Shown: positions 33,701-37,624 of the stretch, in pieces | Numbering within the stretch: position 1 is the stretch's first letter | Layout: each line of letters begins with the position of its first letter | Assembly (NCBI GenBank): GCA_965235115.1 | Contig: OZ249436.1 | Span: 12,836,001 to 12,900,000, forward strand | Direction of reading: 5' to 3' | Source of the DNA: Laetmonice hystrix | Taxonomy: Eukaryota | Length of the DNA: 64,000 bases | Position numbers and translations under genes: made by a program | The notes under the pieces: model-generated | What the model saw: only the letters and a program-made list of their open reading frames with translations | What the model was told of the DNA's origin: nothing | Databases searched by the model: none

Positions 33701-35143
33701 TTAGAAGCAGGTTTCCAATATTCACTGCAAGCCTTTACTTATTAACTTTAGCTTTCTTGGAAACAATGTTTGGGGCTGGCAGACTGATAATAAATACGTT
33801 TGGTGGCCAGAGACAAATAATAATAATAATAATGGCAAGTTAGTATTATGCGGCTAGCGGTAAAGTCAAGAAAGTTTACTCGGCCATGTTTAAATTGCTA
33901 GTGGACATCACGTCATCCAGAGATTTGCAATTTTTCAAGTAGGAGTGCTGTTCAGCTCTTGCTGGAACTGTGGAAGGCCGAGAGATGAATGTTTTGTTTA
34001 GGACTAGACCAATCTCCCATAATGCAGAGGGGCTTGCTCCGCTACCCCACCTCACTTTTTACGGGCAAAATCAGAGGTGCGTTTCTGTAAAGCCCAAAAG
34101 ACTCTTTGAAACCCTCGCTGAACCCAAAGAGTCTTCGCGGCGACGTGGTGTTTCTATAACACTCTATTCTTTAACACTGGTTTCAAAAAGACTCTTTTGA
34201 AAGACTCTTTGCGCAAAGACATCTTTCCTTACAGAAACCCACCCCAGGCCCCTACGCATTTAACCCTGTTTTTGCAAAGTCGGCCGCCCTTTATGGTATC
34301 ACAATGTGGCATCATATTCTGACAGTCTGCGCCGTAAAAGTAAACAACAAGAGTGCCTCAGCAAAATCGAGCAGCCACGATTCGAGCTCGACAATGTTCG
34401 GCTGTGCCGGTCGGGAATTTCTAGGTCAGGTCAGAGGTCACTCGAACGGTAGTACCCAGCAGAGATTGAATGAAGTGAACGATCTCTGTACAGAGAGTGG
34501 GACTAGATCTAGTCTAAGCGGAGTGGACCAGGTGGCAGCACAGACCAGGAAGGTCACTAAGTTTCTAATCTAACATGTCTTTGCTATTGTTAGTCGAGAC
34601 TGAGTCTAGATTTAAAGAAGAGTGCCACCGTCATACATTTAGCCTAACCTAACTACCCTCGCTTACACACACACCATGCACAAACTGTGACCTGTCACTG
34701 TGTTGGGTCACTTGGGCCGTTGTTTCAGTAGTAGAGTGTAGAGTCTACAGTGTCAGTCAAGCTGTTGTATTTGCGGACGACTGTGGCTAATATGCTCACT
34801 GATAGGTGACATAGTCCCTACGAAACACTTGGAATTATTTTTGAGTACACAGAGGTATTTTTTGCACCTAAGATGAAACTGAGCTATCACAATGACATTT
34901 TCCAAATATTGACGATTCATGCTCCTTGATCGCCGAATCCTAACGTCGACGAGTGCCGTCCGGCAACCGGACGGTTCTGTGTATTCATGTAAGTACATTG
35001 TGTATAGAGAAAAATACATTAACTCACTTTGCTTAAGTATAAGGCATAACTATTAAATGCAGAATTTAACAATATTCGCGAAGGATCCTTACTAATTCAT
35101 ACTCCTCGTCATCGCACATGAAATCGTCCTCCCCGTCCGACAT
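27748..35143 (-). CDS. COPS2: COP9 signalosome subunit 2 (CSN2/Alien/TRIP15), 443 aa
   Basis: 13 exons in transcript order: 35143-35093, 32672-32559, 31869-31789, 31250-31125, 30910-30743, 30466-30362, 30045-29976, 29701-29602, 29469-29338, 28995-28898, 28635-28553, 28238-28180, 27892-27748; 1,332 nt, phase-consistent. Translation [39 protein letters not shown]...[17 protein letters not shown]...[19 protein letters not shown]...[16 protein letters not shown]...[17 protein letters not shown]...[11 protein letters not shown]...[16 protein letters not shown]...DPFIREHIE...RIDQVNQVL...KMA* matches CSN2. Confidence 0.97.
34075..34244. mobile_element. Harbinger-like MITE in COPS2 intron 1
   Basis: CAG|AGGTGCGTTTCTGTAA ... 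TTACAGAAACCCACCC|CAG; internal AAAGACTCTTT subrepeats. Confidence 0.6.
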
Positions 35144-35232
35144 CTTGGCTGAGGCGATGGTTGATCGTCACAGCGCATGCCCAAGTTTTAAAGCGGCACC
35201 TAGTGGCCACTTCCTGTTCTAATATATTCAAC
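35144..35232. promoter_or_regulatory. Very compact bidirectional promoter/5' UTR interval shared by COPS2 and DDA1
   Basis: 89 bp between divergent ATGs. Contains NRF1-like GCGCATGCCC (35173), CTCF-like TGGCCACTAGGTGCCGC on - (35193-35209) and ETS-like CACTTCCTG (35208). Both ATGs sit in YY1-like CAANATG contexts. Confidence 0.7.
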
Positions 35233-37624
35233 ATGGTGGGTAGACAGATGTCCGTGAAATTATCACGAAAATGTAGTGTTTTCTTTCTATATAAGCAATC
35301 AATTTACACACAGACATATGTCAGACTGAGACAACTTTGTTGACACTCGAAATATCAAACTGGTATGTTAAATAGTTTTGCTTTACTGTGGTGTTTCAGG
35401 CGGACTTTCTGAAGGAATTGCCGTCGTACAACGAGACCAATTTTACGCGATTCCACGCAGATTCAAGCTGCAAAACTACGGTGAGCATGTGAGCTGAAAA
35501 GAAGGCTAAAAAGGTCCATGACCATGGGAATGGGAAATGTTAGACTACTACGAGCGCTCTGTGGTTTAATGAACCTAAAACATTGGATACCTTCCACTAA
35601 AAGAATAATCTAGATTAAACCAAACTATGGAATAGGCTGTAGTCTGTTAGTGTAGACTCTACTACTGTTACAGTAGATGTATCATGTAGTGTAGGCTACT
35701 CTACTCTTACTCTAGTCTTAGTCTATCATGTCCTCAAGCCCGTCCTCAAGATCTGTCTTTCCCATCAATCATCCATGTCTATGAGTAATAGTTTATTTGA
35801 ACTTCTGCCTGTTTTTTTAGGTGCGGAAACCGGCGGTTTACATTTCTACGAAGGATCACCCATCCGAGCAGGGTAAGCAAAGCCCCCAATTTCAGGGCCA
35901 ATTCCCTTGGGCCTTATGATGGCACATGTTGTCGCCATGCATATTGTCGCCGGCGACAATATGCCAATGTCCAGACCATGGCATATATATTGTCGGCCAT
36001 CAGCACAGATTGTTGCCGGCGACAATATGTGCGGGGAGCATTCATACATGTAGCAGACTGCACTGGCGACAATATGTGCCATAGACATTGGCACATATTG
36101 TCACCGGCGACAATATGTATTCTTCTTTCTCCAACCTTTCTCTAGGAAGAAATCTCAGGTCAACTGACATCTGAAAGCTCCATCATAACCATTATAATGA
36201 TAATCATCCTGATAGCATGGTCATGGTGATTAACATCATATCATCGTCGTTTTCGGTGGCTCTGTTTTACTTTGAGGACTGGCAACAATATGTGCCATAT
36301 TGATCTGCACATTGTCACTGGCGACAATATGTGCCGGCGACATTATATGCCGGCGACAATATATCACATGGACATTTCTACGAGTTTATGAGTTCATTTT
36401 ACATGATAATTCTGATAAGGCTTACCATTTTAGCCAGCTGTCACAACAACAAAATCTTTAAAAAAAAGAAAGAAGAAGAAGGGAAAAAAGGTTCTTCAGA
36501 CCAGAAACGGGGAATTTTCTTTTTTTGGCCTTAAGTAGAATAATCTATATATGGCAATCTAAGACAATGGGAACTGTAGAGAAGATTGGGCATACAGTCG
36601 ACCAAGTCACTGTGACAACAACCAGAGACCTATATGCAAAAAGTCAAGAAAATCAGGAACAACATGAACACAAATTACAAGTGTTTTATGACTAATAACA
36701 TTGGTTGACTCATGACTTTACATAAAATTTAATTTAGTATTATTTATAATATAAAGATTTTCTCAGGCCAGTACCTTGGTCGACATTATTCCTACAGAGA
36801 TATTTACATCTTAACATACCATATAATGTCATGACATATAATTTTTTACTCCGTCTATTGACATAAATCATATTCATTATGATTTAAATTGATATAAAGT
36901 GGTCGCATATCACATTTTTTTGCTTTGTTTCCAGTAATCACGACTGAGAAGACAAATATCCTACTAAGGTACTTACACCAACAGTGGGATAAAAAGGTAC
37001 GTGTTGAGGTGTTGTTGCTGTTACTTATTCATTTTTCACCCAGTGAAATACCAGCAAAGAATAACTGGAGAAACAGTGGCTACCTTAGGAAATGAGCAGG
37101 GGATTGATCCATAGCTCTCGTATTGCATAGTACAAGTTTATCAAAAGATATCTTTTGGGTGGGAACTTGTCCATCTGGTGGATGCCCTTCCCCACTTTGA
37201 AGTGAACAAGAAAAATAATGCCATGGGGGGTTAAGCCTCCAACTTTTTTGCAAGATTATTTACCCATATAATAACAAATAATGCATGTATACACACTATA
37301 GATCTTTTGATAAACTTGTGAACTTAATACTGACCAGTACTAGAAAGACTGGCGACAAGTCAACATCCTAACCACTTGCCCTGGGAATGTCTGGATTTTC
37401 AGAAATTGTCAAGTGTCAATCACCATAGAAAGTTTGCAACACTCCAATTTAATGTCACTAGCAAGTGTGCTGTTTACATATTTTATTTTTATATATGTTG
37501 TTGACGCATATAATTTCAGAACACAAATAAAAAGCGAGATTCCAGCCAAGCAAATTTGGAAGCGTGTGATGCAAGTCCAGCCAGCAAACTACCTCGATTG
37601 AGTTCAGAGGGGCCAGCATCCTAG
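35233..37624 (+). CDS. DDA1: DET1- and DDB1-associated protein 1, 100 aa
   Basis: Exons 35233-35235 (ATG only), 35400-35480, 35821-35872, 36935-36996, 37520-37624; 303 nt, GT-AG, phase-consistent. Protein [100 protein letters not shown]; MADFLKxLPxYN and [18 protein letters not shown] are the DDA1 signature. Confidence 0.95.
35915..36374. repeat. Cluster of palindromic ATATTGTCGCCGGCGACAATAT motifs, probably a non-autonomous DNA transposon, in DDA1 intron 3
   Basis: Perfect 26-bp palindrome at 35939-35964 plus about 8 full or half copies in two blocks separated by a spacer. Confidence 0.65.

What the first reader, a model, noticed from the sequence alone, without database searches (positions are those of the whole stretch)
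35093..35480. COPS2 and DDA1, two cullin-RING ligase regulators, head-to-head with 89 bp between start codons
Seen: COPS2 ATG at 35143 (-) and DDA1 ATG at 35233 (+); the interval holds NRF1-, CTCF- and ETS-like motifs. Established: CSN2 is the cullin/RBX1-contacting subunit of the COP9 deneddylase, and DDA1 binds DDB1 in CRL4 and DET1-DDB1-DDA1 complexes. Inference: a shared minimal promoter couples a CRL off-switch to a CRL4 stabiliser. Two 5' UTRs and a core promoter barely fit in 89 bp, so the leaders should be tiny or overlapping, or trans-splicing is used. I do not recall this linkage in vertebrates.
Basis: partly seen in the sequence, partly recalled or inferred. Interest (0 to 1): 0.78.

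Follow-up and report, generated by a model that had tools for sequence, protein, structure and literature searches.

The report
Ancient back-to-back COPS2-DDA1 gene pair
Two genes that help regulate cullin-based protein destruction sit back to back only 89 bases apart, and the same pairing recurs in other marine invertebrates, so they likely share one small promoter inherited from an early animal ancestor; whether that coordinates their activity is untested.

Summary
Observation confirmed. Intact, apparently single-copy COPS2 (13 exons, 443 aa, minus) and DDA1 (5 exons, 100 aa, plus) have start codons 89 bp apart in a spiralian genome. It is not a chance juxtaposition. Four other animals in metagenome contigs show the same head-to-head layout (153-626 bp). 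In 12 of 19 named species checked (annelids, gastropods, bivalves, Priapulus), the two proteins have accession numbers or locus tags within 3 of each other. Coral-, insect- and crustacean-type loci lack it, as do humans (recalled). An NRF1-type site near the COPS2 start and a CTCF-type site 25-29 bp before the DDA1 start recur in several relatives. Neither strand has a splice acceptor in the interval, so trans-splicing or distant first exons are unlikely. Best reading: one compact housekeeping bidirectional promoter with short or overlapping leaders, kept because it cannot be broken without harming both genes. Selection for CSN-CRL4 balance is plausible but untested: there are no RNA, start-site or co-expression data. 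My searches found no paper on this pair, nor did the scan's earlier notes; the key survey's gene-pair list was unreadable. New member of a known kind.

The parts
27748..35143 (-). COPS2 (CSN2) coding span, 13 exons, 443 aa: 35143-35093, 32672-32559, 31869-31789, 31250-31125, 30910-30743, 30466-30362, 30045-29976, 29701-29602, 29469-29338, 28995-28898, 28635-28553, 28238-28180, 27892-27748
   Evidence: Only open GT-AG combination among candidate boundaries; CSN2 best PDB hit; 94% identical to Tubulanus and 92% to Owenia COPS2
35233..37624 (+). DDA1 coding span, 5 exons, 100 aa: 35233-35235 (start codon only), 35400-35480, 35821-35872, 36935-36996, 37520-37624
   Evidence: Open frame with GT-AG introns; PF10172 over cut-off in exons 2 and 4; 75-80% identical to spiralian DDA1 proteins
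35144..35232 (.). 89-bp interval between the start codons; inferred shared promoter plus both leaders
   Evidence: lies in a CpG-undepleted stretch (o/e 0.91 for 34.3-35.5 kb, 1.2-1.3 at 34.8-35.2 kb, versus 0.36-0.45 in the gene bodies) and has no acceptor-like AG on either strand
35172..35183 (.). NRF1-type palindrome, about 29 bp before the COPS2 ATG
   Evidence: 21/1000 shuffles; 10-bp core with at most 1 mismatch 11-29 nt before the COPS2 ATG in the window, L007, L036/L041, L045/L053 and L060; an NRF1 gene exists in this genome; binding not tested
35193..35206 (-). CTCF-type core, 26 bp before the DDA1 ATG
   Evidence: 4/1000 shuffles; 4 such sites in 64 kb; same strand and 29/25 bp spacing in L020 and L007 (L007's DDA1 start is putative); absent in L045, L036, L028; binding not tested
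35208..35216 (+). ETS-like site (GGAA on the minus strand), 16 bp before the DDA1 ATG
   Evidence: 2 exact matches in 64 kb; not kept in position in relatives; weakest of the three motifs

Best explanation
COPS2 and DDA1 are intact genes facing away from each other with 89 bp between their start codons, and they likely share one compact housekeeping promoter that has probably kept them linked since an early spiralian or protostome ancestor. Shown: the gene models, the spacing, the motif matches, the head-to-head layout in four other animals, and adjacent accession numbers in 12 named species. Inferred: the interval is an unmethylated, open promoter; an NRF1-type site serves the COPS2 side, and ETS- and CTCF-type sites sit on the DDA1 side. 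Both ATG-bearing exons are probably true first exons with leaders of a few tens of bases at most, or slightly overlapping 5' ends. Divergent start sites are usually about 100-110 bp apart in mammals, so the two initiation complexes here probably take turns rather than sit together. The pair probably persists mainly because a rearrangement would have to fall in a few hundred bases that both housekeeping genes need. Broad co-expression is the expected result; it is not shown to be the selected purpose.
For: Gene models and spacing. Head-to-head DNA in 6 of 26 metagenome loci with at least 1,750 bp upstream of COPS2 exon 1, from 4 organisms: L020 257 bp, L045/L053 153 bp, L036/L041 333 bp, L028 about 626 bp. 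Accessions or locus tags within 3 of each other in 12 of 19 species with both. No acceptor-like AG in the interval; CpG o/e 0.91 versus 0.36-0.45. NRF1-type core in 5 of 9 spiralian-type genomic loci and in none of the other loci scored. CTCF-type site at the same position in 3 of 6. The interval aligns to L020's better than 497 of 500 shuffles. Upstream out-of-frame ATGs at 35178 (-) and 35177/35157 (+) would burden longer leaders. Precedent: ancient 5'-5' pairs with short spacers (PMC3514665, passages); GABP at divergent promoters (PMC2077898, abstract); an NRF1-coregulated head-to-head pair in vertebrates (PMC13508932, passages).
Against: No start site, transcript or expression value was seen for either gene. 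Motifs turn over: L020 lacks the NRF1 core, L045/L036/L028 lack the CTCF site, and the interval aligns above chance to only 1 of 5 relatives. One mollusc-like locus (L023, placed by about 15 aa only) has no DDA1 exon in 3.96 kb upstream. Three species have both genes on one chromosome with accessions 376-814 apart, which is unresolved. A mollusc-type COPS2 mRNA contig (L046) has at least 109 nt of leader, so very short leaders are not general. Accession order gives neither orientation nor distance, and the Priapulus link rests on it alone.
Confidence: 0.68

Rival explanations
1. The linkage is selected to keep CSN2 and DDA1 levels matched, because both act on CRL4 ligases.
For: CSN negatively regulates CRL4(CSA), and DDA1 modestly stabilises DDB1-DCAF complexes (PMC11286758, passages). 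Its reference list titles Olma 2009 as finding Dda1 in the CSN interaction network (title only; paper not held). In colon cancer cells DDA1 overexpression raised, and knockdown lowered, CSN2 via NF-kB (PMC4991419, passages). Outside spiralians, 3 of 5 long opposite-strand upstream frames examined encode ubiquitin-system proteins: FBXL2/20-like, UBA2, UBE2N.
Against: CSN2 is one of eight CSN subunits acting on all cullins, whereas DDA1 is CRL4-specific (established knowledge, recalled), so tying these two would not fix stoichiometry. The pair is broken in humans (DDA1 19p13.11 per PMC4991419 abstract; COPS2 15q21 recalled) and absent from insect- and coral-type loci. Many conserved pairs are functionally unrelated. 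The partner tally is small and post hoc.
Confidence: 0.2
2. Two separate core promoters sit back to back, and the CTCF site biases or insulates initiation, so the genes compete or are regulated independently rather than together.
For: CTCF-type site at a fixed 25-29 bp from the DDA1 ATG in 3 of 6 loci. Promoter-proximal CTCF blocks initiation on one strand, and sense/antisense bursts compete (bioRxiv 2021.10.30.465508, passages). Start sites under 60 bp apart are argued to compete (PMC10887517, passages); 89 bp minus two leaders is near or below that.
Against: The site is missing in 3 of 6 linked loci that still keep the pair. Motif only; a CTCF gene in this genome and binding were not tested. 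Both are housekeeping genes that must be expressed in the same cells.
Confidence: 0.15
3. One or both genes start from distant non-coding first exons or are trans-spliced, so the 89 bp is not the promoter.
For: An AG lies 5 nt before the COPS2 ATG. HSPD1 in this genome appears to use a non-coding first exon (inferred from a donor-like site), so such exons occur.
Against: That AG scores -4.8 and the best in the interval -2.0, below all 16 true acceptors. CpG retention and the conserved motifs centre on the interval.
Confidence: 0.05

Closest known systems
Conserved ancestral microsyntenic pairs in 5'-5' orientation (Irimia et al. 2012, PMC3514665), e.g. HSPE1-HSPD1
   Same: Unrelated, adjacent, divergently oriented genes with a spacer under 1 kb, kept across phyla. 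HSPE1-HSPD1 is also head-to-head in this genome, with an NRF1-type site and a start-codon-only first exon in HSPE1.
   Different: Range seems limited to spiralians plus Priapulus; lost in humans and in the insect-type loci. Co-expression not measured. The partners act on the same ligase from different complexes rather than forming one complex. I could not read the paper's pair list, so the pair may be in it.
Human bidirectional housekeeping promoters bound by GABP/NRF1 (PMC2077898 abstract; PMC10887517 passages)
   Same: CpG-rich, no significant TATA box, ETS- and NRF1-type motifs, both genes housekeeping.
   Different: Tighter than the usual 100-110-bp start-site spacing; strict GABP core imperfect; carries a lineage-restricted CTCF-type site.
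EIF2S1-ATP6V1D vertebrate-specific head-to-head pair (PMC13508932, passage)
   Same: Clade-wide head-to-head pair with NRF1 in the shared region.
   Different: Different clade and genes; there binding and co-regulation are reported, here only motifs.
TISU short-leader initiation element (PMC2518114, passages)
   Same: Both start contexts resemble the recalled 12-base consensus (COPS2 10/12; DDA1 11/12 after splicing); TISU genes have a median 12-nt leader.
   Different: Most matching bases are forced by the protein sequence or by an ordinary start context; no chance control was run; described in mammals.

Membership tests
DDA1 family | PF10172 domain; intact frame | tested here: met
   Exon 2 32.5 bits and exon 4 37.6 bits, cut-off 24; open 100-aa model
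COPS2/CSN2 | Full-length orthology with C-terminal PCI domain | tested here: met
   94% identity over 445 columns to Tubulanus COPS2; PDB CSN2; a single 27-aa exon scores 21.6 bits on PCI, cut-off 22
Bidirectional promoter | Start sites on opposite strands under 1 kb apart | tested here: inconclusive
   Start codons 89 bp apart with no acceptor between them, but start sites were not mapped
Bidirectional promoter | CpG-island-like and NRF1/ETS motifs | tested here: met
   CpG o/e 0.91 versus 0.36-0.45; motifs at 21/1000 and 4-52/1000 shuffles
Bidirectional promoter | One fragment drives transcription both ways | not testable with these tools
   Needs a dual reporter
Conserved ancestral microsyntenic pair, 5'-5' class | Unrelated genes adjacent in several phyla | tested here: met
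   12 of 19 named species with accessions or tags within 3: Annelida, Mollusca, Priapulida; indirect evidence
Conserved ancestral microsyntenic pair, 5'-5' class | 5'-5' orientation and short spacer conserved | tested here: met
   Window plus 4 organisms, 89-626 bp
Conserved ancestral microsyntenic pair, 5'-5' class | Conserved intergenic sequence | tested here: inconclusive
   Motifs recur in subsets; whole-interval alignment above chance for 1 of 5 relatives
Conserved ancestral microsyntenic pair, 5'-5' class | Few insulators (a statistical tendency) | tested here: inconclusive
   CTCF-type motif in 3 of 6 intervals; binding or insulation unknown
Conserved ancestral microsyntenic pair, 5'-5' class | Correlated expression | not testable with these tools
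   No expression values obtained
Spliced-leader trans-spliced gene | Unpaired 3' acceptor upstream of the ATG | tested here: not met
   All 11 AGs in the interval score -2.0 or lower versus 0.6-10.8 for true acceptors
TISU-initiated mRNA | Consensus around the AUG and leader under about 30 nt | tested here: inconclusive
   10/12 and 11/12 matches to a recalled consensus, no control; leader length unknown

The most novel reading that the evidence does not exclude
The COPS2 promoter is a selected co-regulation point of the ubiquitin system. It was paired with DDA1 in the protostome ancestor and re-paired independently with other ubiquitin-pathway genes elsewhere (an FBXL2/20-like receptor in stony corals, UBA2 in another animal, UBE2N in termite-type insects). 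In this lineage it has shrunk to an 89-bp element too short for two initiation complexes, so a CTCF-biased toggle sets the CSN2-to-DDA1 ratio.
Probability: 0.12. Interest if true: 0.75.

Novelty: new member of a known kind. Interest (0 to 1): 0.45.

Why it matters
Deeply conserved head-to-head pairs often point to shared regulation or function. This one joins the CSN scaffold subunit to the least understood core CRL4 component, across annelids, molluscs and probably a priapulid. It gives a genomic hint, independent of human proteomics, that DDA1 and CSN dosage may be linked. It is also a minimal, testable bidirectional promoter with natural variants from 89 to about 630 bp, with and without a CTCF-type site, useful for asking how two start sites share under 100 bp. 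If co-expression proves ordinary, it remains a useful synteny marker for spiralians.

Tried and rejected
RNA evidence: no RNA holder was listed for window 28500-38490; this says nothing about expression. The three listed runs are one sample's contigs and cannot show start sites. Co-expression: supplement searches of PMC9977687, PMC5048140 and PMC4232546 gave no hit for either gene (one file not searched in the first and one in the third). Prior description: no listed paper held all of DDA1, COPS2 and 'bidirectional promoter' (8 of 10 two-term papers listed); none of the 25 listed of 321 synteny papers named either gene; none of the 15 listed of 3,636 named DDA1. Supplements of PMC13508932 (2 files held) and PMC8851819 (main table cut in storage) did not list the pair; PMC3514665's supplements were unreadable. 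Four papers asked for by id were not held. The scan's earlier findings contain neither gene name nor a look-alike of DDA1. Rejected: trans-splicing and upstream exons; TATA and YY1 motifs; pseudogene or second copy. Rows dropped: 3 of 60 pattern matches are not COPS2 (L010, L032, L047); 34 of 60 had under 1,750 bp upstream and were left out of the 6-of-26 count, including L007 (putative DDA1 first exon at 549 bp, exon 2 off the contig), L033/L038 and L060. Ixodes is unresolved (contig lengths differ, possibly different assemblies); two mites have the genes on different small contigs of fragmented assemblies. The COPS2 tree does not resolve the window's phylum beyond Spiralia. Deuterostome invertebrates were not tested: DDA1 accessions were obtained, but matching COPS2 accessions were not. 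No complex prediction was run, since no direct binding is claimed.
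Full report
Observation. The start codons are at 35143 (minus) and 35233 (plus), with 89 bp between them. Joining exons at GT-AG boundaries gives one open solution for COPS2 (13 exons, 443 aa) and an open 100-aa DDA1 (5 exons), whose first exon carries only the start codon. Two DDA1 exons exceed the PF10172 cut-off; PDB searches return DDA1 and CSN2 as best hits. Searches of the 627-Mb own genome with relatives' proteins found each gene only here. 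A COPS2 tree places the window among spiralians (support 99/96) and outside the mollusc clade, with no finer resolution.

Conservation, named species. I looked up 30 clusters of my own choosing, biased to spiralians. Nineteen species had both proteins identifiable. In 12, accessions or locus tags lie within 3 of each other: Patella caerulea (KAK6189000/001), Lottia (ESP05559/558), Littorina (V1264_001756/755), Lamellibrachia (KAI0223792/793), Ridgeia (KAK2172759/760), Crassostrea gigas, Saccostrea cucullata, Ostrea edulis, Mytilus galloprovincialis, M. edulis, Argopecten and Priapulus (XP_014668111/109, same 301-kb scaffold). Three are 5-35 apart (C. angulata, Mizuhopecten, Ylistrum). Three share a chromosome but are 376-814 apart (Pecten, C. 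virginica, Lineus). Ixodes is unresolved. That accessions usually follow gene order is recalled practice, not shown here, and it gives no orientation. These species are related and count as roughly three phyla, not 12 events.

Conservation, DNA. A degenerate pattern for COPS2 exon 1 gave 60 metagenome loci, 57 of them COPS2-like. Of the 26 with at least 1,750 bp upstream, 6 carry DDA1 exons on the opposite strand. They come from four organisms: L020 (257 bp between ATGs), L045/L053 (153 bp), L036/L041 (333 bp; DDA1 closest to venerid/mactrid clams) and L028 (about 626 bp; best of 9 candidate first exons). All fit the same start-codon-only first exon. L007 has a matching putative first exon at 549 bp, but its contig ends before exon 2. 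The 20 negatives are termite- and other insect-type, coral/cnidarian-type and crustacean-type loci, one unplaced animal (L044) and one mollusc-like locus (L023), a possible exception. Coral COPS2 is intronless and so probably retroposed, which makes corals uninformative about the ancestral state. In humans the genes are on different chromosomes (DDA1 19p13.11, PMC4991419 abstract; COPS2 15q21 beside GALK2, recalled). The pair therefore dates at least to early spiralians, and to the protostome ancestor if the Priapulus adjacency holds.

Promoter anatomy. Gene bodies are CpG-depleted (o/e 0.36-0.45), while 34.3-35.5 kb is not (0.91), peaking at 34.8-35.2 kb; this suggests one unmethylated promoter. 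With recalled consensus strings, the NRF1-, CTCF- and ETS-like matches are reached by 21, 4 and 4 of 1000 shuffles (strict GABP core 52 of 1000); TATA and YY1 are at chance. The NRF1 core lies 11-29 nt before the COPS2 ATG in 5 of 9 spiralian-type genomic loci (window, L007, L036/41, L045/53, L060; not L020, L023, L028, L033/38) and in none of the other loci scored. An NRF1 gene is present in this genome. The CTCF-type core lies on the same strand 26, 29 and 25 bp before the DDA1 ATG in the window, L020 and L007, against 4 such sites in 64 kb, and is absent from L045, L036 and L028. A small acceptor model built from the 16 acceptors of the two genes scores all 11 AGs in the interval at -2.0 or lower, against 0.6-10.8 for the true ones left out in turn. 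Upstream exons and trans-splicing are thus unlikely.

How two leaders fit (inference). Mammalian divergent starts average about 100-110 bp apart (bioRxiv 2021.10.30.465508, passages), and a review argues that starts under 60 bp apart compete (PMC10887517, passages). With 89 bp, a 60-bp separation leaves at most 29 nt for both leaders together. Either the leaders are very short, or the 5' ends overlap (23% of human divergent pairs do, same review), or the polymerases alternate. Upstream ATGs at 35178 (minus, out of frame, running across the COPS2 start) and at 35177 and 35157 (plus) favour leaders under about 35 and 56 nt. A spiralian-type COPS2 mRNA contig (L004) begins 25 nt before the ATG and a mollusc-type one (L046) 109 nt before; contig ends are not start sites. 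As a control, HSPE1 and HSPD1 are also head-to-head in this genome, with about 150 bp from the HSPE1 ATG to an inferred HSPD1 first donor and an NRF1-type site between them. Such compactness is therefore not unique here.

Function. CSN inhibits CRL4(CSA), and DDA1 modestly stabilises DDB1-DCAF modules (PMC11286758, passages); that CSN2 contacts cullin and RBX1 is recalled. DDA1 level affected CSN2 level via NF-kB in colon cancer cells (PMC4991419, passages). So both genes act on one ligase class, but nothing here shows that their linkage is selected for that reason. One post hoc hint: where DDA1 is absent, the opposite-strand neighbour is FBXL2/20-like (L009, L035), UBA2 (L044), UBE2N (L002, coding exon about 1.4 kb away), MAU2 (L043) or an unnamed 502-aa frame (L016). 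L029 has a tandem kinesin, and frames tested from L048, L023, L024, L017 and L033 matched nothing.

Comparison and novelty. The pair fits the 5'-5' class of conserved ancestral microsyntenic pairs, of which nearly 600 pairs of all orientations were reported (PMC3514665, abstract and passages). I found no text describing this pair (supplements), but that survey's pair list was unreadable and may contain it. The scan's earlier notes do not mention either gene. Verdict: real, conserved, new member of a known kind. Shared promoter likely (0.68), selected CSN-CRL4 coupling 0.2, interest 0.45.

Noticed in passing
L009:3172-4572(-), L035:2159-3604(+): In stony-coral-type loci COPS2 is intronless and has an intronless FBXL2/20-like F-box/LRR gene head-to-head about 250-300 bp away: a different CRL component on the COPS2 promoter.
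   Followed up: partly
L044:2593-4931(+); L002:4222-4695(+); L043:2470-3936(+); L016:2034-3539(+): Other divergent neighbours of COPS2: UBA2 (SUMO E1), UBE2N, MAU2 and a 502-aa frame with no Pfam match.
   Followed up: partly
window 3339-22800 (+): Large multi-exon gene convergent on COPS2, with PAH repeats and two long tandem-repeat coding tracts (about 15.4-16.4 kb and 20.2-21.0 kb). Resembles GON4L; that name is recalled and comes from no call.
   Followed up: partly
window 1039-1347 (-) and 2400-2700: An open frame without Pfam match points away from the GON4L-like gene, with an NRF1-like site at 2659: possibly a second divergent pair in the window.
   Followed up: no
window 61215-63270 (+): Exons of an MFS/SLC22-like transporter, about 24 kb downstream of DDA1 (Pfam Sugar_tr/MFS_1 for 62947-63267).
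   Followed up: no
L063:2179-2330 (G000:C12 near 10,488,200): HSPE1-HSPD1 head-to-head with an NRF1-type site, and a perfect CTCF-type core about 220 bp beyond the inferred HSPD1 first donor.
   Followed up: partly
window 35900-36370: DDA1 intron 3 holds several direct and inverted copies of a short motif of about 15 bp, like a small foldback element; a 12-bp length variant lies at 35730 in intron 2.
   Followed up: no
L028, L045/L053, L033: A long-branch spiralian clade (100/99) whose COPS2 lacks two introns present in the window and whose DDA1 exon 2 is unusually divergent.
   Followed up: no
G000:C13:23222668-23222826 (-): A second, partial NRF1 DNA-binding-domain match apart from the main NRF1 gene.
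   Followed up: no
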